DNA of 47,562 nucleotides from assembly GCA_016203765.1 (NCBI GenBank), contig JACQMB010000148.1:1-47562 (forward strand), given 5' to 3'. Below, in pieces: positions 688 to 47,562 of this stretch. Under the pieces are notes generated by a model. That model did not search any database and was not told the DNA's origin. It saw nothing but the letters and a program-made list of their open reading frames with translations. Every line of letters starts with the position of its first letter. Position 1 is the stretch's first letter. The stretch comes from Deltaproteobacteria bacterium (GTDB taxonomy: Bacteria; UBA10199; SPLOWO2-01-44-7). The translations under genes and the position numbers were made by a program.

Positions 688-2109
688 ATGTCAAAAAAGA
701 GGAAGGGTTTTTTAATTTGTTTGGCGGTTTCATTGTTGTTTCTACCGGCCGTTGGCGGCCAGGCCTCTCCCAAATCTCAAGCGCTTATCCAGCAAGGGCA
801 TCAGCATTTAACAAAACAGCATTTTGAGCGGGCCTTAAAAAGTTTTGAGGCCGCGGCCAAACTCGACCCGCAAGACGGGCAGGCCCTTTTCTTTCAGGGC
901 GTTGCCCTGAACCGCCTTGGACGGTTTCACGAGGCGGGCAAAAAACTCGATCAGTCCGAAAAATTAGGGACACACCCCGACTGGGCCTTTGAGAGGGGCT
1001 GGGCCCATCTGGGGCAGGCTGAATTTAGCGAGGCGGTCGGCCGGTTGAAAGCCTATGAAAAGAAAAACGCCGGCCGCGGCCAGACCTCGGAGTTTATCGG
1101 CCGGGCCTATTTTGGCCTGGGCGATGCAAAAAAGGCCCGGCGCTACTTCGACAAGGCCTTGAAGCAGAATCCCGGTTTAAAACAGACGGTTAATTTGTAC
1201 CTCGCCGCCATGGAACGGTCTCCCCAGGCGAAAACCGACCAAAAGGCATCAAAACCGTGGGGCATTTTTTCCAATCTGGCCGGCACCTATAATACTAACG
1301 CCATCAATTTGGGCAATGGGGCCACCCTTCCCACCGATGTCGCCCGTCAGGATTCAACCTTCGCTTCGACATCAATCGGCGGCAACTATCGGCTTCGCCT
1401 TGGGGATAAAAACCAACTGGCCTTTGGACATCAGTTTTTGGGGAATGCCTATGAGGTTAGCACCAGGCTCAACATGATGGACAATTTCACCTCGATCCAG
1501 TTCCGCCGCTCCCTGAACCAGAAGCAGGTGTTGGGGATTACGGTTTCGAACGATTTTACGATTGTCCAGACCGCTAAATTTCGCAATCAAATCGGTTTCC
1601 GCCCTGTTTTCGGCTGGCAACTGGCGGATTGGCTGACCTCCGAGGGTTCCTACGCCTTCGGTTTTGGAGAATATTTCTTTCCATCCAACGCCAACCAAGA
1701 CCGGGATGGCCATTCCCATGTTGTAGGCTTGAGCAACTATTTGGGTGTTCCGAACACGAAATTAAGGTTTTTGTTGGGCTATAATCACCTCTGGAACCGG
1801 GCTGACGGCGCCGATTTTGATTTTCAGGGCAACAATTTAAATTTTGCCGTCAGCCATCCCCTCTTTTGGGAAGTGACCGCGGAGCTTTTTTTCAGTCAGG
1901 GCTGGAATCGTTTTGATAATGTCAACAGTCTCACGGCCAACACCATGCGCAGTGACGACGTCTCCAATGTCTTTACACAGATCAATTTCCCCATACATGG
2001 GGGGGTGCGGGGGTTTTTACGGACCGGCTATATGCGAAACAAATCGAACATTAACACGTTTAATTCCCGGGCTCATCAGGGGAATGTGGGGATCTTAGTG
2101 GGGATTTAA
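688..2109 (+). CDS. Outer-membrane protein: signal peptide + TPR repeats + C-terminal beta-barrel (Slam/DUF560-like architecture, unverified)
   Basis: Signal peptide MSKKRKGFLICLAVSLLFLPAVGGQA. TPR-like helices (FERALKSFEAAAKLDPQDGQALFFQGVALNRLGRFHEA; AKKARRYFDKALKQNP). The last ~290 aa are alternating-hydrophobic strand-like segments. The function call rests on architecture only. Confidence 0.6.
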   Translation: MSKKRKGFLICLAVSLLFLPAVGGQASPKSQALIQQGHQHLTKQHFERALKSFEAAAKLDPQDGQALFFQGVALNRLGRFHEAGKKLDQSEKLGTHPDWAFERGWAHLGQAEFSEAVGRLKAYEKKNAGRGQTSEFIGRAYFGLGDAKKARRYFDKALKQNPGLKQTVNLYLAAMERSPQAKTDQKASKPWGIFSNLAGTYNTNAINLGNGATLPTDVARQDSTFASTSIGGNYRLRLGDKNQLAFGHQFLGNAYEVSTRLNMMDNFTSIQFRRSLNQKQVLGITVSNDFTIVQTAKFRNQIGFRPVFGWQLADWLTSEGSYAFGFGEYFFPSNANQDRDGHSHVVGLSNYLGVPNTKLRFLLGYNHLWNRADGADFDFQGNNLNFAVSHPLFWEVTAELFFSQGWNRFDNVNSLTANTMRSDDVSNVFTQINFPIHGGVRGFLRTGYMRNKSNINTFNSRAHQGNVGILVGI

Positions 2110-2110
2110 T

Positions 2111-2557
2111 ATGGAGAAAAAATTTTTAATAAGTCTTTTGGGATTGGCCCTGGGCGTGTTTGCAAAAAATCTTTGGGCTTGCCCCGCCGGTCAGGTTTGT
2201 TCCGACGGAAGCGACACCTGCGAATCCAGCCTTTGCGTGGCTGACACGAGCGGCGGCGGTTCCTCCACCGCCCCGACCACGACCGAGGGGCAGTTGGGAT
2301 TAACCCTCGAACCCGTTTTGCAATTGGAGGGGAAGCTGGTTCGGGCTTTCCATTTTGACGCCAGCCAAAAGGACTCTTCCAACGGAGGCTGGACTTTTTA
2401 TGATCCCCGGCCAGAGTTTGCAGATGTCAACACCTTGACTCAAATCGCGCCAGGCGGGGTCTATTGGATTCAGGTCAATCAGGCAACAACCATTCAGTGG
2501 GATAGTCAGTCGGCCCCGATTCCCCTCTTTGAGGGGTGGAATATAGTCCCTCGGTAG
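2111..2557 (+). CDS. Secreted or lipoprotein candidate, unknown family (4-Cys N-terminal module + T/S/G linker + ~90 aa domain)
   Basis: ATG lies 1 nt after the stop of 688-2109. The signal peptide ends KNLWA/C, followed by CPAGQVCSDGSDTCESSLC and the linker GGGSSTAPTTTEGQLG. Confidence 0.65.
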   Translation: MEKKFLISLLGLALGVFAKNLWACPAGQVCSDGSDTCESSLCVADTSGGGSSTAPTTTEGQLGLTLEPVLQLEGKLVRAFHFDASQKDSSNGGWTFYDPRPEFADVNTLTQIAPGGVYWIQVNQATTIQWDSQSAPIPLFEGWNIVPR

Positions 2558-2568
2558 GTTAAAACCAC

Positions 2569-2597
2569 AGTCGTATAATCCACAGAAAAATTCTCCC
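2569..2597 (+). promoter_or_regulatory. Copy 2 of the TATAAT-containing repeated motif
   Basis: AGTCGTATAATCCACAGAAAAATTCTCCC, 33 nt upstream of ATG 2630. Compare with 557-588. Confidence 0.4.
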
Positions 2598-2629
2598 TCC
2601 TTTTTTTTGGATGGTGTAAAATCAGAAAC

Positions 2630-3448
2630 ATGGCTGTGAAAATCATTTCAATTGTAGTTGCCGCGATCTTGGGATTCTTCTTAAACCTGTCGTTTGCCCT
2701 GGCTTGTCCTTCCGGCATGGTTTGTCCCGAAGGCAAAGAATGCAGTCAGCCCAGTGACTGTACTACGGGTCCTCCCACCGCACCGGGCGGCGGCGTTTCA
2801 ACCACCCCGTCCACCGCCACCGGTGAAACCAGCTCGACGCCCACTACGACTCAGGAACAAATCGGTCAGACCGCCGATCCAAAGTCCGACCCCAATCTTG
2901 TTGGTGTGGAGATAAAACCTCTCACGGACCGGGACATAATGGATTTGACCTTCGGGCACGGGATGGTCCGGGCCTATTTGGATTTTGTGAATGCGATGGC
3001 AAACTTTGAACTGCGGGGGCCCCGCGGGGAAATGTCGGAGAGGAGGATGGAAAAGATAAGAGAACGAGCCAGGGAGCGGGCGGATAGGGAGGCGGGGGTT
3101 GACCAGGCCCTGGATGCGTGCAGAAAAACCAATGACAACTATGTCCGGGCCCATCAGGAGTGGAAACATCAGGTGAAGGTTCAAGACATGATCGGTATAG
3201 ACGTGGGGAGATTGCGGACAGAGTTGGAAAAACTGGGGGACGGTCCTAACCAGTATGGCATCCCAAGAAGTCAAATTTACGGAAATGCCCATCGGGAGTG
3301 GATTCAATCCCTTCTCAAAAGCGCCGACATGGAAAATGCGGTAACGAATGCCCGCACGTTGAAGGAGGAGGCCTGGGGCAAATATCTGTCCGCGCAAGAG
3401 AAGGCTGGTGATCTTCAACAACAGTATATGGGGGAATGGGGCAAATGA
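2630..3448 (+). CDS. Secreted or lipoprotein candidate, unknown family. N-terminus is paralogous to 2111-2557; C-terminal part is helical and charged.
   Basis: The signal peptide ends LSFALA/C, followed by CPSGMVCPEGKECSQPSDC. A T/S/P/G linker ends TTTQEQIGQT. The remaining ~180 aa are helical and rich in charged residues. Confidence 0.65.
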   Translation: MAVKIISIVVAAILGFFLNLSFALACPSGMVCPEGKECSQPSDCTTGPPTAPGGGVSTTPSTATGETSSTPTTTQEQIGQTADPKSDPNLVGVEIKPLTDRDIMDLTFGHGMVRAYLDFVNAMANFELRGPRGEMSERRMEKIRERARERADREAGVDQALDACRKTNDNYVRAHQEWKHQVKVQDMIGIDVGRLRTELEKLGDGPNQYGIPRSQIYGNAHREWIQSLLKSADMENAVTNARTLKEEAWGKYLSAQEKAGDLQQQYMGEWGK

Positions 3449-3984
3449 GGAACGGTGTTAAAACAGCGCTGATCCTTTTTATGATCGTTGGTTCGATCAG
3501 CGTGTGGGGCAAAGATCATGAGACGGCGGCAGATCGGATCCTGAAAAGACAAACCGAAAGCCCCAATTTGCAAAACAGGATGAAGCGGTGGGAGAAAGAG
3601 GTGAATGTTTTGGAAGCGGTCAGGGATTACGAACGTAAAAAGACGGAATATCAAGAGACGCTGGAAAATCTTGTAAAAATCCGCGGTGAGAATGAGTCGT
3701 TGCTTGCAGAATTAAGGGCGGCCTTTGAGGCATGGAGCAAAAACACTTCCTCAACAAAGACGTGGCGGTATTTACAGGCGCTCGAAAGGAAAGTTGCACA
3801 AGGGAGCGAGCAACAAAACCGCCTGCACGATTTGGCCGAACAGCTTTGGAAGGAAAAACAAAAGAGTTTTTTTGCCGCCCTTCAGACCAAGAAAAACGCC
3901 TACGCCTTGGAGATGAAGCATCAAATGACGGAAGTGGCCAGACGCGCTACCAAAGATGTTCCGATCCCCAAACCCCAAGATTGA
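3445..3984 (+). CDS. Secreted coiled-coil protein, unknown family
   Basis: ATG 3445 overlaps the TGA of the upstream gene (ATGA); an alternative ATG is at 3436. Signal peptide MRNGVKTALILFMIVGSISVWG. The rest is E/K/Q/L-rich and looks heptad-like. Confidence 0.6.
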   Translation: MRNGVKTALILFMIVGSISVWGKDHETAADRILKRQTESPNLQNRMKRWEKEVNVLEAVRDYERKKTEYQETLENLVKIRGENESLLAELRAAFEAWSKNTSSTKTWRYLQALERKVAQGSEQQNRLHDLAEQLWKEKQKSFFAALQTKKNAYALEMKHQMTEVARRATKDVPIPKPQD

Positions 3985-41458: not shown

Positions 41459-42536
41459 TTGGAACCTCCCAGGGTTTGCGCTGAATGGGTGTCAACCCCG
41501 TTTCCCGGACCCAGCTTAACACCCGTTCAACATTTTCCTCTATGTGTGTCCCCGCCTGTTGCGTGACTTGATCTTCAAGGGCGATGTCAAAATCATCGGC
41601 CCCGTATTTGAGGCTTAAAGCACCGGGCTCCCCCTGCGTCAAGAGGGAAGCGCGGAGGTGGAAAATGTTATCGAGATAAAGCCTGGAAATGGCCACGGTG
41701 CGGAGATAATCGTCGTTGGAGGTGACCGCTCCGCCGAGCGCCGTGTTTTGACTTTGATAAGTCCAAAGCAAAAAACTGGCAAAGCCCCCCGTTTTATCCT
41801 GCAGGCTCCGAATGGTTTTGAGATGCTCGACCCTCGCCTCATAAGGCTCGCCAAAGCCGATCACCATCGTGGCGGTGGTGCCGAAACCCATTTGCTGCGC
41901 CGTCTCCATGGTCTCCAGATATTGCCCGACCGAATATTTTTTGGGGGATAGTTTTTTTCGCCATTCGGGGGTCAGGATTTCGGCCCCGCCGCCGGGGATC
42001 CAGCGCAGGCCGGCCGCTTTTAACCGTCGCAGTGTCTCCGGAACCGGCACCTTGGAGTTGCGGGCGATAAACAGGACTTCCACGGCGGTGGGACCGTAAA
42101 TTTCGATCTTGTCTTCGTAGCGGCCTCGCACCGCCTGAAAGAGTTTTTCGTAATGATCGAGTTTGAGGGCCGGATTAAATCCCCCCTCCATGGCGACGAG
42201 CGAACCTCCTTTTTCCAAAAGCCGGTCGATTTTTTCAAAAATTTGTTCGTGGGTCAGAGTGTAACCCTCCGAATGGCCGGGTCTTCGATAAAAGGCGCAA
42301 TACTTGCAGTCGGCCACACAAAGGTTGGTATAGCTGACAATCCGCATGACCAGATAGGTGGCCTGTTTGTCCGGCAGAATTTGGCAACGCCGGGCGTGGG
42401 CCTTTTTTTGAAGCGCCTTGAGGGGCGCGCGATGAAAGAGGTTAACGGCCTCCGGCTCGGTGAGACGCTCCGGCGCCTTGGGGCACTCCTCCGAAGTTCT
42501 GGGTGACAAAGACTTGGCCATTGTTGGGGTCAACAT
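41442..42536 (-). CDS. Radical SAM enzyme of the MqnC/MqnE/CofH family (futalosine menaquinone pathway)
   Basis: YTNLCVADCKYCAFYR (CxxxCxxC), GGSLVAMEGGFNP, ~360 aa. The start is uncertain (ATG 42536, ATG 42521 or TTG 42509). Confidence 0.78.
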   Translation of the reverse strand: MLTPTMAKSLSPRTSEECPKAPERLTEPEAVNLFHRAPLKALQKKAHARRCQILPDKQATYLVMRIVSYTNLCVADCKYCAFYRRPGHSEGYTLTHEQIFEKIDRLLEKGGSLVAMEGGFNPALKLDHYEKLFQAVRGRYEDKIEIYGPTAVEVLFIARNSKVPVPETLRRLKAAGLRWIPGGGAEILTPEWRKKLSPKKYSVGQYLETMETAQQMGFGTTATMVIGFGEPYEARVEHLKTIRSLQDKTGGFASFLLWTYQSQNTALGGAVTSNDDYLRTVAISRLYLDNIFHLRASLLTQGEPGALSLKYGADDFDIALEDQVTQQAGTHIEENVERVLSWVRETGLTPIQRKPWEVPNGTAD

Positions 42537-43293
42537 AGATGCCGATCCCCGCGTGCGTCAAGTCAGGAGCCAAAATGTTGTTGCGATGACCCTCGCTATT
42601 CATCAAATCAACCTGGCAGGCGTCGCTGTTGAAAAGGGTGTACATCATTCCGCTTCGCCAAGTGTTCTCGGCGGTTTTGTAAAAGCGCCCGGCAGTGGCC
42701 GCCGTGATCCGCTCATGCGGAGTCCTTCCGTCGGAACCGATGTGGGGTTTGTAGGTGTCATTATTTATCCAATCGGGTTTGTGTCTTCCCAAGTCCTCGG
42801 AATGGCTCTTGGCCGCCTTCACCAAATCGCAGTCCGGTTTGAGCGGCTTTTGCCCAAAGCGGCCGCGGTCCTGATTCAACCGCTCAAAAATTTTCCGTTC
42901 ATAATGGCTCATGCACCGAGCCTCGGGCGGGACGGCCTCCTCTCTTGCAAAAATCCGGGCCTCTTTGTCGACGAAAGTTGCCAGAGAGCGATGGGTGGTT
43001 CCATCGCCGGCCTCCAGAGGGCTGGATTCCAAAATGTCGTCGGCCACGTATTTTAGTTTGGCCGGCAAGCGTTTCTTAAGTTGGTCGATGTTGAGCCAAT
43101 AACTGGAGACCAGCCGATCCGTGCAAGAGGCAACGGGGGTTTGCCTTTCAGCCGCCCGGTATCGGCAGGCCCGGGCGGCCTGCTCCCTGATTTTTCCGGC
43201 AACGGCCTCCACACACTCCGGCGGACGGCCGGAGCCCGCCTCCTTGCAGGCCTCGTTGATTTTTCTTTGAACGGCGGCGGCAATCTTCGGCAT
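42442..43293 (-). CDS. CAP/SCP (YkwD-like) domain protein
   Basis: LNQDRGRFGQKPLKPDCDLVKAAKSHSEDLGRH...HIGSDGRTPHERI...ENTWRSG...MNSEGHRNNILAPDLTHAGIGIY. No obvious signal peptide. Confidence 0.72.
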   Translation of the reverse strand: MPKIAAAVQRKINEACKEAGSGRPPECVEAVAGKIREQAARACRYRAAERQTPVASCTDRLVSSYWLNIDQLKKRLPAKLKYVADDILESSPLEAGDGTTHRSLATFVDKEARIFAREEAVPPEARCMSHYERKIFERLNQDRGRFGQKPLKPDCDLVKAAKSHSEDLGRHKPDWINNDTYKPHIGSDGRTPHERITAATAGRFYKTAENTWRSGMMYTLFNSDACQVDLMNSEGHRNNILAPDLTHAGIGIYVDPNNGQVFVTQNFGGVPQGAGASHRAGGR

Positions 43294-43384
43294 GGCGCTG
43301 TTTGTTAGCGGAAGCCGCCGGCAAAAGCAAGCCTTTCCATTTCAAACGGGTTATGATAATTTTTGCGGGTCAAGGAGGGAAAAC

Positions 43385-43867
43385 ATGAAAACGAAACTAT
43401 GGTTAGCCGCCTGGCTGGCGGGGATTTCCGTATCTATCGCGGCGGCGGCCGGTTCCGGAAAAAAAGACTCTCCCGTGGGGTATTGGAAGACTATCAGCGA
43501 CAAGACCGACAAACCGCGCAGTGTGGTTCAGGTCTACGAGTCGGGCGGGGTTGTTTACGGAAAGATCGTCAAGAGCCTGGTGCCGGGGGAGGGGCCGGGG
43601 GATCTCTGCGAGAAGTGTGAGGGTGAATTTCACAACCAGCCGGTCATTGGAATGCGGTTCATGTGGGGGCTTCAGGAAGACGAGGACGGCGTCTGGAAGG
43701 AGGGGAGGATTCTCGATCCCGACAGCGGCAAAACCTACAAATGCAAGATTACCCTCCTGCCGGAGGGCGATCAACTGAAGGTTCGCGGGTATATCGGCTT
43801 TTCCCTGTTAGGCAGGAATCAGGTCTGGCACCGCGTCCGCAGTCCAGCCGCGGCCGGTTCGAATTAA
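43385..43867 (+). CDS. DUF2147-domain periplasmic protein
   Basis: RBS AGGAGGG. Signal peptide MKTKLWLAAWLAGISVSIAAA. GYWKTISDKTDKPRSVVQVY...GKIV...LCEKCEG...NQPVIGM...ILDPDSGKTYKCKI...LKVRGYIGFSLLGRNQVWHRV. Confidence 0.8.
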   Translation: MKTKLWLAAWLAGISVSIAAAAGSGKKDSPVGYWKTISDKTDKPRSVVQVYESGGVVYGKIVKSLVPGEGPGDLCEKCEGEFHNQPVIGMRFMWGLQEDEDGVWKEGRILDPDSGKTYKCKITLLPEGDQLKVRGYIGFSLLGRNQVWHRVRSPAAAGSN

Positions 43868-43971: not shown

Positions 43972-44731
43972 TTAAAAAGCAGTGATCAGTGTTGCAAACC
44001 CCACAAAATCCCATTGTTGGTAGCCGGCCACCGGTTCCTTGTTGAAAAAGGCGGTGAAGCCGAAGGCGAGTTTCAGGAGATCATTCAGCAAGATGACAAA
44101 AGCGCTATCTGTTTCAAAAGAGTAGCCCCTGAGACGTTCTAGATTGGTTTCATAGACAACCGTTTGATCAGAAGATAATGTTTGAGTGAACGGTTCACTC
44201 CATGTGAGGCTTGAAAAAAAACCGTTGGAGTTTGAAGCGCCGCCGGGCGTTTCTTCCGCGTGGCTTCGGGAATAACCGGCCTCCATTCTTGCCGACCGCT
44301 TTTGTTTTTCAAAAAGATGAAGCGCCATCCCTCCTTGCGCGCTGGCTGAAAGATTTTGTCCAAAAAGAGGCTGGTTGGAAATGCCGCCGCCGACAAAACT
44401 CGAAAAAAACGGCAACCAAAAATAACGGAGACGGTAAGCGCCGCCGATTTGGCGGGCATATTTTCCATTGGGGGTGGTATCGGTCGTGAGAAGGGAGGAA
44501 AAGGAAAGAGTCTGGCGAAATTTTTTGAGTGGATGTCTTAAAGAAGCGTCAAACCCGAAGGCGGCCCCATCGGCATTTCCCGAAATAACGCCCATTCCCG
44601 TTCCGAGCGTCGCAGTGATTTTAGGAATTGCCTTGATCTCCGGTTCTTTGATCGGTTTTGTCGGCGCTCTGCCGATTGCCGACTCCGCTATGAGAAAAGA
44701 AAAGGAAGAGGGTTACGCCGATTTTCCTCAT
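43972..44731 (-). pseudogene. DUF481-like outer-membrane beta-barrel gene with an apparent frameshift between signal peptide and body
   Basis: The body ORF (ATG 44595) lacks a signal peptide and ends ...ATLITAF. A signal-peptide ORF MRKIGVTLFLFFSHS... starts at 44731, 1 nt after the upstream stop, and runs to TAA 44621-44623 in another frame. The body frame is open up to 44712. Confidence 0.55.
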
Positions 44732-44732
44732 A

Positions 44733-45614
44733 CTAAGGAAGCGGGGCTATGCAAGTGTCGGAGGTGAGTCCGTCGACCGGATCGCAGGCTTCGTCTTCGC
44801 TTTCGCTGACATCGGAAACCTCGGCCTCAATGCCGACATCCCCCTCGCCTCCGGTCGTTTCTCCGGTTGTATCGATATCGGCGCTGACATCGGCAGGGGG
44901 TGGAACAGCCGTTGCGACCGGTTCGGTTGTTATATCGGCGTTTTCAACCAGTTCTTCCCCCGTGATGTCGGTGGCGCTTCCCACCTCTGCTTCAACCGTT
45001 GTCTCTTCGACCGCGACATCGGCATCTAGAATTTCTCTCTCTTCCAGTTCGCCGCTGGTATCGACAGTCACGTCGGTTTCAACTGTTCCTGATTTCAGAT
45101 TCACATCGGCCTCGGCATCGAGAATGGGGCTCTCTGGCTCCTCGACTACGGTTTCTTCAAGCGGGGTTTCTCCCCCGGTGCTTTCCTCCGGCACGGTTTC
45201 TTCGGCCACTGTTTCCTCTTTTTCAGCTGTCATCGGCTCTTTTTCTTCCCTTATTTCTTCCCTCACTTCTTCCCGGACAACCTCCGGAGTTCTTTTTACA
45301 TCCTCTTCAATCGATGTGACCCCTTCCCCCTCCAGATCCAATTTGAAAATTGTTTTATTTTCAGCCTCGCCGATGGTGTCCGGCGTGACCCGATTTTCTT
45401 CGTCTTTCCGGGGCAGCGGCGGGGAGACGGTTTTTTTGTGCGCCTCGCTTTGGCTGCCCGGTTTTGAAACGAGGCTCCCTTTTTTAATCTCGGCGCCTCT
45501 GATTTCGCGGTCTACCTCGATATCTCTCTTCTCCCCGGCGAAAACCGCAGCAGGGGAGTGGAGTAAAACCAGAAAAATCGCGCCTGCAATCCATTTTTTT
45601 ATTTGTTCTTGCAT
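44733..45614 (-). CDS. Secreted hyper-acidic low-complexity protein (E/D/T/V-rich), unknown family
   Basis: ATG 45614 with RBS AAGGAGAAGGAAAGGA. Signal peptide MQEQIKKWIAGAIFLVLLHSPAAVFAG. About 200 aa of E/D/T/V-rich sequence. C-terminal CDPVDGLTSDTCIAPLP. Confidence 0.6.
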   Translation of the reverse strand: MQEQIKKWIAGAIFLVLLHSPAAVFAGEKRDIEVDREIRGAEIKKGSLVSKPGSQSEAHKKTVSPPLPRKDEENRVTPDTIGEAENKTIFKLDLEGEGVTSIEEDVKRTPEVVREEVREEIREEKEPMTAEKEETVAEETVPEESTGGETPLEETVVEEPESPILDAEADVNLKSGTVETDVTVDTSGELEEREILDADVAVEETTVEAEVGSATDITGEELVENADITTEPVATAVPPPADVSADIDTTGETTGGEGDVGIEAEVSDVSESEDEACDPVDGLTSDTCIAPLP

Positions 45615-45636
45615 TCCTTTCCTTCTCCTTCGCCTC

Positions 45637-46986
45637 CTAAAGCGAAAAAATAACCTTCCCTCCCGCGATGTGGCGGGTGCGATCAAAAAAATCGTTGTCG
45701 TTTTCTGAACCGATAAACCGGTAAAAAAGGCGGGAGGCAAAATTCGGCTTCCAATGCCGCGTCACTCCCGCGTAAAGATCCCAGACATGATCTTCCCTTG
45801 TTCGGGTATCCAATGCGGAGAGGGATTGAAAATTGGGATAGCTCCCCCAGCTGAATCCGCCCGACAGATCCAGATCGGTCTTTTTGACGAAGACGAGCGG
45901 CATATGCGCTCCGGCGCGCGTCAGCGCTCCCCATCGGTCGAAATTGTCTCCACGCGTTCTGTCGAAATTGCCTTCCCCTTTGATGAAGAAAAAGGTCTTG
46001 AAGTTCGATTTGTAAAAATATTGGGTGAGTCCCATGCCGCCGCGGATGCCGTCGCGGGAGGAGATGGCGGGATTGGCGCCGTCCGACGCATATTCCAAAA
46101 TGCCGAAGCGCCCGTAGAAATGCGTTTGCGTTTTGGGGAAAAAGGAGGTGTCGGCGCTGGCGTAAAACCGGTTGACGATCGAGAAAAGATTCGTTTTCAG
46201 CAAATTGGCGCGAAAATCGTATCGTCCCCCCAAAAGAACCGAGCGCTTGCCGGCGAAAACGCGCCGTTTGGAATCAAAGGCGATTCCTTGAGAGGTGAAA
46301 TCGGCGTCTCTGGCCCCTTCGGTGTGAAGGTAGGCTTCGCCGATATATAAAATATCGGCGCGAAAATTTCTCTTTAACCATAAAGGATATCCGGCATTGA
46401 GTTCCACCATGAAACGAGCGGCATCGGCCTTGTTTCTTGACGATAAATTGCCGTTGTTGGGGACCAGCAAAGGATTGCTGTCATAGGCAACCCCTCCTTT
46501 TCCGATAACATACGCTTTCTTTTTTACGGGCTTACCGGCCGTGCGGATATTTTCGCGCAAGCGGTTTAATTGGGCCTCCGCCCAATGACGGTATTCTGCG
46601 GAAGAGGCCTTCCGGGAAACGAAGCGAAGTTCTCTCCGGGCCTTTTCATATTCCTCCAGCTTGATGTAGGCCAGGCCCAGAAAGAGCCGCGCGGGGATAT
46701 CGCCCGGATAGGCCGCGAGGATTTGCCGGTAAAGTTGAATCGCTCTTGTCACTTGGTGCAATTTTTCCAAAGTCAGGGCGCGGTAGCGCAAGAGAAGCGG
46801 ATCGTTCGGGTATTTTTTCAAAAGGGCGTCGCATTCCTTCAGTGCCTTCTCATATTTTTTGTTTCGAAATGTTTTGACAAAGGAACTGACAAGAAATTCT
46901 TTGGTGGAAATCTCCCTTGCAAAAGAGGCGGCGCCGATGAAAAAAACCGTCGCAAAAAGCAAAACCACCCAAAATGATTTTCGCAA
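45637..46986 (-). CDS. Outer-membrane protein: signal peptide + TPR + beta-barrel (third copy of this architecture)
   Basis: TTG start with AAGGAG 8 nt upstream. MRKSFWVVLLFATVFFIGAASFA, then TPR helices (YEKALKECDALLKKYPNDPLLLRYRALTLEKL...ARLFLGLAYIKLEEYEKARRELRFV), then a strand-rich ~300 aa region. Confidence 0.62.
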   Translation of the reverse strand: MRKSFWVVLLFATVFFIGAASFAREISTKEFLVSSFVKTFRNKKYEKALKECDALLKKYPNDPLLLRYRALTLEKLHQVTRAIQLYRQILAAYPGDIPARLFLGLAYIKLEEYEKARRELRFVSRKASSAEYRHWAEAQLNRLRENIRTAGKPVKKKAYVIGKGGVAYDSNPLLVPNNGNLSSRNKADAARFMVELNAGYPLWLKRNFRADILYIGEAYLHTEGARDADFTSQGIAFDSKRRVFAGKRSVLLGGRYDFRANLLKTNLFSIVNRFYASADTSFFPKTQTHFYGRFGILEYASDGANPAISSRDGIRGGMGLTQYFYKSNFKTFFFIKGEGNFDRTRGDNFDRWGALTRAGAHMPLVFVKKTDLDLSGGFSWGSYPNFQSLSALDTRTREDHVWDLYAGVTRHWKPNFASRLFYRFIGSENDNDFFDRTRHIAGGKVIFSL

Positions 46987-47350: not shown

Positions 47351-47377
47351 TGGCGGAGAGGGAGGGATTTTCCCTCG
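47351..47377 (-). repeat. Second copy of the tRNA-Ser 3' end (T-arm 3' half + acceptor 3' strand + CCA)
   Basis: Minus strand reads CGAGGGAAAATCCCTCCCTCTCCGCCA. A 17-nt core (AAATCCCTCCCTCTCCG) is identical to 47501-47517 in the tRNA. Confidence 0.7.
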
Positions 47378-47500: not shown

Positions 47501-47562
47501 CGGAGAGGGAGGGATTTGAACCCTCGATACACCTTTTGGGCGTATACTGGTTTAGCAAACCA
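47501..47562 (-). tRNA. tRNA-Ser(GCU), 3' two-thirds (5' part lies beyond the window end)
   Basis: Minus strand shows anticodon loop TTGCTAA (GCT), a long variable arm TATAC-GCCCAAAAG-GTGTA, T-arm GAGGG-TTCAAAT-CCCTC, acceptor CCTCTCC and discriminator G. No CCA is encoded at this copy. Confidence 0.8.

What the first reader, a model, noticed from the sequence alone, without database searches (positions are those of the whole stretch)
43972..46986. Second TPR-barrel operon: OM TPR-barrel, then a hyper-acidic secreted protein, then a DUF481-like barrel
The minus-strand genes 45637-46986, 44733-45614 and 43972-44731 are tightly packed, with 22-nt and 1-nt gaps. The middle product has a clear signal peptide and then ~200 residues that are almost only E/D/T/V/A/G, with loose repeats such as EEVREEIREEKE, VETDVTVDTSGE and EETTVEAEVGS. 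It ends with a two-Cys tail CDPVDGLTSDTCIAPLP. Extreme acidity suggests cation, mineral or surface binding, or an intrinsically disordered surface coat. The gene order (TPR-barrel followed by a secreted protein) is the same as at 688-3984.
Basis: partly seen in the sequence, partly recalled or inferred. Interest (0 to 1): 0.62.

Follow-up and report, generated by a model that had tools for sequence, protein, structure and literature searches.

The report
Slam-like barrel with hyper-acidic disordered partner
An outer-membrane protein distantly related to the Slam/type 11 secretion channel is always followed by a secreted, extremely acidic, disordered repeat protein, which is probably its export cargo and would be a cargo type not yet described for this system.

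Summary
Two are a real, conserved unit.

**Barrel gene (45637-46986).** It encodes a signal peptide, a periplasmic TPR domain of about 125 aa, and a confidently modelled 14-stranded beta-barrel. It misses Pfam SlipAM/DUF560. However, a barrel-only profile retrieves genuine SlipAM proteins (hhalign 95.8%). I read it as a divergent Slam/T11SS-type outer-membrane protein.

**Acidic gene (44733-45614).**
- The product has a calculated pI of about 3.7 and a net charge of -55, and is predicted to be disordered.
- It has at least 51 homologues and follows the barrel gene directly in every related locus that has enough downstream DNA, often with an ATGA overlap.
- Members share an N-terminal motif, one to five repeat units, and a C-terminal "EADV...DPxDGL" motif.
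- The plus-strand S/T-rich ORF is a shadow ORF.

**Third gene.** Contigs from four sequencing runs confirm the frameshift. The gene is absent from all related loci, so it is not part of the module.

**Best reading (about 55%).** This is a two-gene, T11SS-like export cassette whose cargo lacks the canonical 8-stranded barrel domain. I class it as a new variant of a known kind. Nothing has been tested by experiment, and no RNA data could be obtained.

The parts
45637..46986 (-). Outer-membrane protein of 449 aa. It has a signal peptide (residues 1-23), a periplasmic TPR domain (about residues 28-149, window 46540-46905) and a 14-stranded beta-barrel (residues 159-448, window 45643-46512). It ends in ...GGKVIFSL. 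An AAGGAG ribosome-binding site lies 6 nt before the TTG start.
   Evidence: - ORF and translation. Start region.
- TPR Pfam hits, plus a weak TPR_Slam hit (27.9 bits, cut-off 35.2).
- AF2 model with pLDDT 85.4 and 14 strands. The best Foldseek match is the 14-stranded OmpG.
- More than 196 homologues at 49-72% identity.
- Remote homology to SlipAM/DUF560.
44733..45614 (-). Secreted hyper-acidic protein of 293 aa.
- Signal peptide: residues 1-27.
- Degenerate family N-motif: residues 30-49, window 45468-45527.
- E-rich linker with a degenerate first repeat.
- One canonical repeat unit: residues 163-235, window 44910-45128.
- Conserved C-terminal motif ending CDPVDGLTSDTCIAPLP: residues 241-293, window 44736-44894.
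   Evidence: - Translation.
- Composition, pI about 3.7 and net charge -55.
- 51 homologues, none with a Pfam domain.
- Alignment A3 showing the motifs.
- Position directly after the barrel gene in all related loci.
- AF2 mean pLDDT 49, with only one low-confidence hairpin at residues 165-184.
- Sense frame intact in 20 of 20 genes checked.
43972..44595 (-). DUF481 (YdiY-like) outer-membrane barrel domain. This is the longest ORF with a start codon (207 aa) and it has no signal peptide. It is not part of the conserved module.
   Evidence: - Pfam PF04338 at 5.4e-13, covering profile positions 9-210 of 210. Six-frame HMM hit.
- Absent from all related loci.
- Only 20-28% identical relatives in 10 of 60 related genomes, and none in G003.
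44621..44731 (-). Out-of-frame 5' piece of the DUF481 gene. An ATG 1 nt after the acidic gene's stop encodes a signal-peptide-like MRKIGVTLFLFF..., then runs into a stop after 36 codons. A +1 shift in the T-rich run at about 44690-44700 would join it to the DUF481 frame.
   Evidence: Three-frame translation and sequence. The identical sequence is present in contigs of four runs, X1-X4.
44749..45708 (+). Antisense S/T-rich shadow ORF of 319 aa, opposite the acidic gene. It is not a gene.
   Evidence: Listed. The equivalent antisense frame carries 1-10 stops in the 19 related loci, and 2 or more in 16 of them, whereas the sense frame is always intact.
47501..47562 (-). 3' part of a tRNA/tmRNA-like gene, cut by the contig end, upstream of the module. 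Its last 17 nt recur at 47354-47370.
   Evidence: Rfam clan CL00001 match cut off at its 5' side. Sequence. The repeat gives 2 matches, against 0 of 100 shuffles that reach 2.

Best explanation
Genes 45637-46986 and 44733-45614 form a self-contained, two-gene, Slam/type-11-secretion-like export cassette.

**Shown**
- The first product is an outer-membrane protein with a basic periplasmic TPR domain and a 14-stranded barrel. It belongs to the SlipAM/DUF560 superfamily at remote-homology level.
- The second product is a Sec-exported, hyper-acidic (pI about 3.7), nearly aromatic-free protein predicted to be disordered.
- In every genome that carries the barrel gene, the acidic gene follows it directly and is often translationally coupled.
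- The acidic family keeps three things: an N-terminal motif right after the signal peptide (D-x-R-[DE]-x-A-[VI]-D-x-A-[IV]-G-G-M-E-E-G-S-R), one to five repeat units of about 85-130 aa, and a C-terminal motif (...DTTGxTxGGEADVG[IL]EADV...[DE]DV.. DPxDGL...).

**Inferred**
- After Sec export and signal-peptide cleavage, the conserved termini dock the unfolded polyanion to the TPR domain and/or the barrel.
- The chain is then threaded through the positively lined barrel to the cell surface or the medium.
- There it acts as a polyanionic coat or a cation- or mineral-binding protein.

The DUF481 gene downstream is a lineage-specific, frameshifted neighbour and not part of the system.
For: **Architecture**
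- TPR Pfam hits and a weak TPR_Slam hit.
- AF2 pLDDT 85.4, with helices at 28-149 and 14 strands at 159-448. The top fold hits are the 14-stranded OmpG.
- T11SS outer-membrane proteins are described as DUF560 14-stranded barrels with an N-terminal TPR domain of about 140 aa (PMC8406197).

**Homology**
- The barrel-only profile A2 finds 183 cluster representatives among 1.84 billion proteins.
- 16 of 100 hits scanned pass an E-value of 0.01 to PF04575 SlipAM.
- One of them, P0286, scores 48.2 bits against a cut-off of 22 over profile positions 4-285 of 288. It aligns to A2 over 270 columns with hhalign probability 95.8% and E = 7e-9.
- All 100 barrel parts form one BLAST-linked set.

**Pairing**
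- In 3 loci fetched through homologous proteins and 26 fetched from genomes, every locus with enough downstream DNA has the acidic gene next. The gap ranges from -4 to +61 nt, and ATGA overlaps are frequent.
- The surrounding genes differ from genome to genome.
- In the 68%-complete genome, only this one ORF carries the N- and C-terminal motifs.

**Cargo properties**
- Family net charge is -32 to -65, pI is 2.8-3.7, and each protein has 0-4 aromatic residues.
- Predicted disordered.
- Repeat number varies from 1 to 5.

**Charge complementarity**
- The barrel domain has net charge +14 and pI 10.2. The TPR domain has net charge +11 and pI 10.25.
- A crude strand-phase estimate gives 21 K+R against 13 D+E facing the lumen, including nine invariant basic residues.
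Against: - No experiment or transcript data exist.
- The barrel itself and all 120 listed close homologues miss PF04575.
- The cargo lacks the C-terminal 8-stranded beta-barrel that unifies known T11SS cargo (PMC12282271).
- Gene adjacency fits a non-cargo partner (plug, tether or regulator) equally well.
- Surface localisation, the direction of threading and the role of either motif are inferences.
- The charge and lumen analysis is crude and rests on a predicted model.
- The window's own N-motif is degenerate (RGAEIKKGSLV in place of GGMEEGSRI).
Confidence: 0.55

Rival explanations
1. The acidic protein is not cargo. It is a stable partner of the barrel: a periplasmic or lumen-plugging subunit, or a polyanionic tether. 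It would gate or regulate a cation or solute channel, or concentrate cations at its mouth.
For: - Strict adjacency and translational coupling fit a stoichiometric complex.
- Opposite charges on the barrel/TPR and the partner.
- Two conserved terminal motifs could be two binding sites.
- 14-stranded barrels such as OmpG are solute pores.
Against: - Homology of the barrel to SlipAM translocons.
- Variable repeat number (1-5) and highly variable low-complexity linkers are typical of exposed surface proteins, not of a fixed subunit.
- Cargo size ranges from 230 to 942 aa.
Confidence: 0.17
2. The barrel is a secretion pore for a fibre or matrix protein, analogous to curli or Fap. Once outside, the acidic repeat protein polymerises, or assembles with Ca2+/Fe/Mn, into a surface layer or a mineral-nucleating matrix. 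This is a special case of export, but with a structural or biomineral role.
For: - The repeats and the C-terminal motif show alternating hydrophobic and acidic residues, which suits amphipathic beta-hairpins (VEADATVDT, ADVGIEADV).
- Extreme acidity and D-rich motifs.
- The source is groundwater.
Against: - No Q/N-rich amyloid repeats.
- No CsgG/FapF-type components and no accessory nucleator genes are conserved nearby.
- AF2 gives no confident fold.
- No canonical Ca-binding motif was identified.
Confidence: 0.12
3. The TPR-barrel is an exopolysaccharide export porin of the PgaA/BcsC/PelB type, and the acidic gene is functionally unrelated.
For: - TPR plus barrel is also the architecture of EPS porins.
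- BcsC and PelBC appear far down the Foldseek list (ranks 36 and 43).
- There is a faint NCBIfam PgaA hit at E = 0.069.
Against: - The model has 14 strands, whereas PgaA-type barrels are described as 16-stranded (PMC8406197).
- No synthase or glycosyltransferase is conserved next to the gene. Only the acidic gene is.
- The profile links are to SlipAM, not to the PgaA or BcsC families.
Confidence: 0.03
4. The acidic ORF is a spurious low-complexity reading frame, and the plus-strand S/T-rich ORF is the real gene.
For: The plus-strand ORF 44749-45708 is open for 319 codons in this window.
Against: - The sense frame is intact in 20 of 20 genes checked. The antisense frame carries 1-10 stops in the related loci, and 2 or more in 16 of the 19.
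- The signal peptide, N-motif and C-motif are conserved at protein level across 51 or more homologues, with in-frame indels.
- A purine-rich ribosome-binding site precedes the ATG at 45614.
Confidence: 0.01

Closest known systems
Slam / type 11 secretion system outer-membrane proteins (Pfam PF04575 SlipAM/DUF560; Neisseria Slam1/2, Xenorhabdus NilB and HrpB, Acinetobacter HsmA)
   Same: - Signal peptide, a periplasmic TPR domain of about 125-140 aa and a 14-stranded C-terminal barrel.
- The cargo gene lies immediately adjacent.
- T11SS can export unlipidated soluble cargo (PMC12282271).
- Remote sequence homology over the whole barrel (hhalign 95.8% to a PF04575-positive protein).
   Different: - Falls below the PF04575 model, with no hit for the window protein or for 120 close homologues.
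- Carried by groundwater MAGs labelled Omnitrophota, or Deltaproteobacteria-like, rather than by the Proteobacteria in which T11SS has been catalogued.
- The partner has no TbpBBD/lipoprotein-C-type 8-stranded barrel, no handle domain and no lipobox. It is a disordered polyanion with its own N- and C-terminal motifs.
Sister cassette in the same window (688-2109 barrel plus secreted proteins at 2111-3984; earlier scan finding e1-4981222)
   Same: - The same architecture and gene order.
- The barrel proteins are distantly related over TPR and barrel (hhalign 91.6%, E = 8e-7).
- The downstream proteins have signal peptides and short conserved motifs.
   Different: - A different cargo family: a four-Cys N-terminal module and T/S/P/G linkers, which is not acidic repeats.
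- The two barrels are too far apart to find each other by single-sequence search at E <= 1e-3.
Neisseria LbpB, a Slam-dependent surface lipoprotein with long negatively charged D/E-rich regions (from my own knowledge, not tested here)
   Same: A Slam-family translocon handles a substrate that contains highly acidic, low-complexity stretches.
   Different: LbpB is a lipoprotein with folded lobes and C-terminal barrel domains, and its acidic regions are inserts. Here the whole mature protein is acidic and predicted unfolded.
TPR-containing exopolysaccharide porins (PgaA, BcsC, PelB)
   Same: A periplasmic TPR domain fused to an outer-membrane barrel that exports an unfolded anionic or neutral polymer.
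   Different: They have larger barrels (16-stranded for PgaA, PMC8406197), much longer TPR arrays and a polysaccharide substrate with linked synthase genes. None of these is present here.
DUF481 / YdiY family (Pfam PF04338), for the third gene only
   Same: A full-length match to the DUF481 profile above the gathering threshold.
   Different: The reading frame is broken between the signal peptide and the barrel. The gene is not linked to the barrel-cargo pair in any other genome examined.

Membership tests
Slam / T11SS outer-membrane protein (SlipAM, PF04575) | The protein passes the Pfam PF04575 (DUF560/SlipAM) model | tested here: not met
   - No PF04575 hit for the full protein or for the barrel alone, even at E <= 10.
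- None of the 120 listed close homologues carries PF04575.
- A six-frame search of the genome found nothing, but the controls were also silent.
Slam / T11SS outer-membrane protein (SlipAM, PF04575) | Homology of the barrel to bona fide SlipAM domains (superfamily level) | tested here: met
   - The barrel-only profile retrieves proteins of which 16 of 100 hit PF04575.
- P0286 scores 48.2 bits against a cut-off of 22.
- hhalign of A2 against P0286 gives 95.8%, E = 7e-9, over 270 columns.
Slam / T11SS outer-membrane protein (SlipAM, PF04575) | N-terminal periplasmic TPR domain of about 140 aa | tested here: met
   Multiple TPR Pfam hits at residues 40-130, plus TPR_Slam at 27.9 bits (below its cut-off of 35.2). 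Helical repeats at residues 28-149 in the model.
Slam / T11SS outer-membrane protein (SlipAM, PF04575) | 14-stranded C-terminal beta-barrel | tested here: met
   The AF2 model has 14 strands at residues 159-448, with most 10-residue blocks at pLDDT 80-97. The best structural matches are the 14-stranded OmpG. This is a prediction only.
Slam / T11SS system | Cargo gene adjacent to the outer-membrane protein gene | tested here: met
   The acidic gene follows the barrel gene in every related locus with enough downstream DNA, with gaps of -4 to +61 nt.
Slam / T11SS system | Cargo carries a C-terminal 8-stranded beta-barrel domain (TbpBBD / lipoprotein C type) | tested here: not met
   No Pfam domain in the protein or in its 51 homologues. 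AF2 predicts disorder, with only one hairpin. The definition is taken from PMC12282271.
Slam / T11SS system | Barrel-dependent translocation of the cargo across the outer membrane | not testable with these tools
   This needs co-expression and fractionation or surface-labelling experiments.
DUF481 (PF04338) outer-membrane barrel | Match to the family profile above the gathering score | tested here: met
   49.9 bits against a cut-off of 21.1, covering profile positions 9-210 of 210. 50.6 bits in the six-frame search.
DUF481 (PF04338) outer-membrane barrel | Intact gene with a signal peptide, as needed for an outer-membrane protein | tested here: not met
   The signal-peptide-like start at 44731 is in another frame. 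The in-frame ORF starts at 44595 without a signal peptide. The frameshift is present in four runs' contigs.
EPS export porins (PgaA/BcsC/PelB) | A 16-stranded or larger barrel with a long TPR array, linked to polysaccharide synthase genes | tested here: not met
   14 strands and about 3 TPR pairs. The neighbours differ between genomes and include no conserved synthase.

The most novel reading that the evidence does not exclude
This is a type-11-like translocon whose natural substrate is an intrinsically disordered polyanion. The conserved N-terminal (GGMEEGSR-type) and C-terminal (EADV...DPxDGL) motifs would then form a new, barrel-domain-independent export signal, read by the TPR domain and a positively lined 14-stranded barrel. 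The two-gene cassette also moves laterally between phyla: it is in 2 of 93 genomes of the window's own phylum but in many Omnitrophota-labelled groundwater MAGs. If true, Slam-type barrels can thread unfolded chains, and a short transferable tag for outer-membrane export might exist.
Probability: 0.3. Interest if true: 0.72.

Novelty: new variant of a known kind. Interest (0 to 1): 0.58.

Why it matters
**Open question in T11SS biology.** How Slam/T11SS barrels move substrates across the outer membrane is unresolved. All verified cargo share a C-terminal 8-stranded barrel domain, and the family has been catalogued in Proteobacteria (PMC12282271, PMC8406197).

**What this cassette adds.**
- It would extend the superfamily to uncultivated groundwater lineages.
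- It would pair the translocon with a cargo that has no folded targeting domain at all.
- A naturally unfolded, uniformly charged substrate with two short conserved end motifs is a simple model for asking what a Slam-type barrel recognises and whether it threads extended chains.

**Ecology.** A polyanion with net charge of about -55, displayed or released by very small groundwater bacteria, could affect metal binding, mineral nucleation or cell-cell attachment.

**Annotation.**
- The acidic family (51 or more members) and the barrel family (196 or more) are currently 'hypothetical' or 'TPR protein'.
- The downstream DUF481 gene should be flagged as frameshifted.

Tried and rejected
1. **Direct family assignment.** Pfam and NCBIfam scans of the barrel gave only TPR hits. 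PDB sequence searches with the single protein, the full profile and the barrel-only profile found only TPR proteins or nothing. A search with a SlipAM-positive protein also found only TPR matches, so no solved SlipAM barrel was detected by sequence.
2. **PF04575 six-frame search of the genome.** Nothing matched, but the control genomes were also silent, so the result is uninformative.
A region-restricted search of residues 236-293 against 5.8 billion proteins returned only the query. The region is too short for that database, so this says nothing about absence. An HMM of the C- and N-motifs against the six-frame genome found only this gene.
4. **Trio synteny.** phmmer with the DUF481 product found no hit in any of the 30 or so related loci. 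I therefore rejected the trio operon.
5. **Magnetosome idea.** There are MamA-like TPR hits, and acidic MamJ-like proteins exist. I rejected this because the hits are generic TPR (30 bits against a cut-off of 200) and no magnetosome genes are linked.
6. **Plus-strand ORF as the real gene.** Rejected.
7. **Island bounded by att repeats.** The 17-nt tRNA-end repeat has only two copies, 147 nt apart, both upstream of the module. It does not bracket the module.
8. **Expression evidence.** The sequencing-run finder was closed when I asked for RNA runs. Only DNA contigs were laid.
9. **Rfam and ARAGORN on the window.** No complete RNA gene was found.


Full report
**Observation**

On the minus strand, the ORF listing and translation confirm two ORFs: a 449-aa ORF at 45637-46986 with a TTG start, and a 293-aa ORF at 44733-45614 with an ATG start, 22 nt apart. 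An AAGGAG ribosome-binding site lies 6 nt before the TTG, and a purine-rich site precedes the ATG at 45614.

The second product starts with a Sec-type signal peptide (…AAVFA|GE) and has no lipobox. The mature part has 78 D+E against 23 K+R, a net charge of about -55 and a calculated pI of about 3.7. It contains a single aromatic residue.

The span 43972-44731 is 760 nt. The ATG at 44731, 1 nt after the acidic gene's stop, opens a signal-peptide-like frame (MRKIGVTLFLFFSHS…) that terminates after 36 codons. The DUF481-matching frame is a different one, and its first start codon is the ATG at 44595, giving 207 aa with no signal peptide. A +1 shift in the T-rich run near 44690-44700 would be needed to join the two pieces. 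The same sequence, without indels, stands in Logan contigs of four groundwater runs. The frameshift is therefore a property of the population and not an error of this one assembly.

**The barrel protein**

Pfam finds only TPR families at residues 40-130, plus a sub-threshold hit to TPR_Slam, the TPR domain of surface lipoprotein assembly modifiers (27.9 bits, cut-off 35.2). The C-terminal 300 residues hit nothing.

There are more than 196 homologues at 49-72% identity. Where named, they are 'Candidatus Omnitrophica/Omnitrophota' TPR or hypothetical proteins.

An AlphaFold2 model built on 30 homologues is confident (mean pLDDT 85.4). It shows helical repeats at residues 28-149 and 14 beta-strands at 159-448, and the protein ends with an OMP-type …VIFSL. 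The best Foldseek matches in the PDB are the 14-stranded OmpG (TM-score 0.61-0.66 on the target). A TPR domain of about 140 aa followed by a 14-stranded barrel is the architecture described for DUF560/T11SS outer-membrane proteins (PMC8406197).

**Is it a Slam/T11SS relative?**

By direct test it is not. The window protein gives no PF04575 hit even at E <= 10, and none of its 120 listed close homologues has one.

By profile it is:
- A barrel-only alignment (A2, 24 sequences from the window and fetched loci) searched against 1.84 billion cluster representatives found just 183 proteins at E <= 1e-3. Nearly all are 440-600 aa with the match at the C-terminus.
- Of 100 full-length hits scanned, 51 hit TPR_Slam and 16 hit PF04575 SlipAM at E <= 0.01.
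- One of these, P0286, scores 48.2 bits (cut-off 22) over SlipAM profile positions 4-285 of 288. It aligns to A2 over 270 columns with hhalign probability 95.8% and E = 7e-9. The shared landmarks are G..G..YDSN at strand 1, RDG, RGD-F/W, and N.DFF..RH.AG at the end.
- All 100 barrel parts form a single BLAST-linked component.
- The other TPR-barrel of this window (688-2109) aligns to the family over both TPR and barrel (91.6%, E = 8e-7).

I conclude that this is a divergent clade of the SlipAM superfamily that the Pfam model does not reach. It fails strict family membership and passes at superfamily level.

**The acidic protein is real and is the barrel's fixed partner**

It has 51 homologues at E <= 1e-3, none with a Pfam domain and all 'hypothetical'.

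I examined three loci fetched through homologous barrel proteins and 26 loci from the genome collection. In every locus with enough downstream sequence, the gene after the barrel encodes a signal-peptide protein of 230-942 aa with 14-22% D+E and 2-8% K+R. The gap is -4 to +61 nt, and about a dozen loci have an ATGA overlap, which implies translational coupling. The surrounding genes differ in every genome: toxin-antitoxin, Abi and restriction genes in some, housekeeping genes in others.

Alignment A3 shows the family plan:
- A motif immediately after the signal peptide, D-x-R-x-x-x-[VI]-D-x-x-[IV]-G-G-M-E-[EQ]-G-S-R-I. In the window it is degenerate: RDIEVDREIRGAEIKKGSLV.
- A variable G/T/S/P-rich linker.
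- One to five copies of a repeat, NPIVD.D..VNPESGTVEAD.TVDTSGELEE[KR]QILDADL…EVGSA.DIT….ADITT.P. The window has one canonical copy and one degenerate copy. L034 has five copies in 942 aa.
- The most conserved segment, at the very C-terminus: …DL.AE[VI]DTTG.T.GGEADVG[IL]EADV.G.SEGEDV.[CS]DP.DGL….

The DPxDGL core is what is kept.

The sense frame is intact in all 20 genes checked. In the 19 related loci the antisense frame corresponding to the window's 319-aa plus-strand ORF carries 1-10 stops, and 2 or more in 16 of them, so that ORF is a shadow.

AlphaFold2 with the family alignment gives mean pLDDT 49 and pTM 0.16. The only secondary structure is the signal-peptide helix and one low-confidence hairpin at residues 165-184. 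This is consistent with intrinsic disorder, and it excludes the 8-stranded C-terminal barrel that unifies known T11SS cargo (PMC12282271).

In the 68%-complete genome, HMMs of the N- and C-motifs find only this gene.

**Mechanistic reading**

*Shown.* A SlipAM-superfamily TPR-barrel and a Sec-exported, disordered polyanion form an invariant, often translationally coupled gene pair. The polyanion's two ends are conserved while its middle varies in length and repeat number.

*Inferred.* The ends are docking or export signals for the TPR domain and barrel, and the unfolded chain is threaded outward.

*Suggestive.*
- The partners have opposite charges. The barrel domain has net charge +14 and pI 10.2, the TPR domain +11 and pI 10.25, and the family mean barrel pI is 9.3, against -32 to -65 for the cargo family.
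- A crude strand-phase estimate gives an excess of basic residues facing the lumen, nine of them invariant.
- The repeats and the C-motif alternate hydrophobic and acidic residues, as amphipathic beta-hairpins do. This would suit recognition by beta-augmentation, but that is speculation.

What the exported protein does (cation or mineral binding, an anionic coat, or attachment) is untested.

**Rivals**

- A stable plug or regulatory subunit fits the adjacency and the charge complementarity. It fits the size and repeat variability less well.
- A fibre or matrix role is a sub-case of export.
- An EPS porin is disfavoured by the strand number, the neighbours and the profile links.

**Distribution**

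Only 2 of the 93 species genomes of the window's own GTDB phylum carry the barrel: G000 itself and G003, a same-family MAG labelled 'Deltaproteobacteria bacterium' in NCBI. The other carriers fetched are groundwater MAGs mostly labelled Omnitrophota. Eight that I checked received new handles outside that phylum set, each with one copy. Within the family the module sits in unrelated neighbourhoods (window against L004). This pattern suggests lateral transfer of the two-gene cassette, but I did not build trees.

**The DUF481 gene**

It matches PF04338 over the full profile. No copy occurs in any related locus. G003 has none, and the relatives in 10 of 60 related genomes are only 20-28% identical. 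It is a lineage-specific neighbour whose reading frame is broken between the signal peptide and the barrel. It is a probable pseudogene, and I cannot exclude low-level frameshifting on the T-run.

**Relation to earlier notes**

An earlier follow-up in this scan (e1-4981222) read the 688-3984 locus as a Slam-like barrel with a new cargo family. I reached the Slam link for this locus independently, through the profile search, Pfam scans and hhalign. I also confirmed that the two barrels are distant relatives, while their cargo families are unrelated.

**Limits**

- There is no experimental or transcript evidence.
- The structural statements rest on predictions.
- The taxonomy rests on record titles and anonymous GTDB groupings.

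**Verdict**

The finding is real and partly re-interpreted. It is a conserved two-gene Slam/T11SS-like cassette with a new, disordered, hyper-acidic cargo type, followed by an unrelated frameshifted DUF481 gene.

Noticed in passing
window 47501-47562 (-) and 47354-47370 (-): The contig ends inside the 3' part of a tRNA/tmRNA-like gene (Rfam clan CL00001 hit cut at its 5' side). By eye the anticodon loop reads Ser-GCU. Its last 17 nt, AAATCCCTCCCTCTCCG, recur 147 nt downstream (0 of 100 shuffles give two copies). This looks like an att-type scar of an integrative element, just upstream of the module.
   Followed up: partly
window 44621-44731 / 43972-44595 (-): The DUF481 gene is split by a +1 frameshift in a T-rich run. 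The identical sequence is present in contigs of four independent groundwater runs, so it is either a genuine pseudogene or a recoding site.
   Followed up: partly
L034:6344-9174 (+): A 942-aa member of the acidic family with five repeat units and very long G/T/S/Q-rich linkers. The repeat number in the family ranges from 1 to 5.
   Followed up: partly
G000 and relatives; loci L004-L036: The barrel-cargo cassette is present in only 2 of 93 genomes of the window's own GTDB phylum but in many Omnitrophota-labelled groundwater MAGs. It sits in unrelated neighbourhoods, next to toxin-antitoxin, AbiEii and DpnI genes in some. This suggests lateral transfer.
   Followed up: partly
window 42442-43293 (-) and 43292-43867 (+): Just downstream of the module lie a CAP/YkwD-domain secreted protein (E = 6e-13) and a DUF2147 protein (E = 7e-33). 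Both are envelope or secreted proteins of unknown role. Their 5' ends overlap by 2 nt on opposite strands.
   Followed up: no
window 44733-45614 (-), residues 30-49: The window's copy of the otherwise strongly conserved N-terminal motif GGME[EQ]GSRI is degenerate (RGAEIKKGSLV), and its first repeat is replaced by an E/R/K-rich stretch (VREEVREEIREEKE). This copy is the most divergent of the close family.
   Followed up: no
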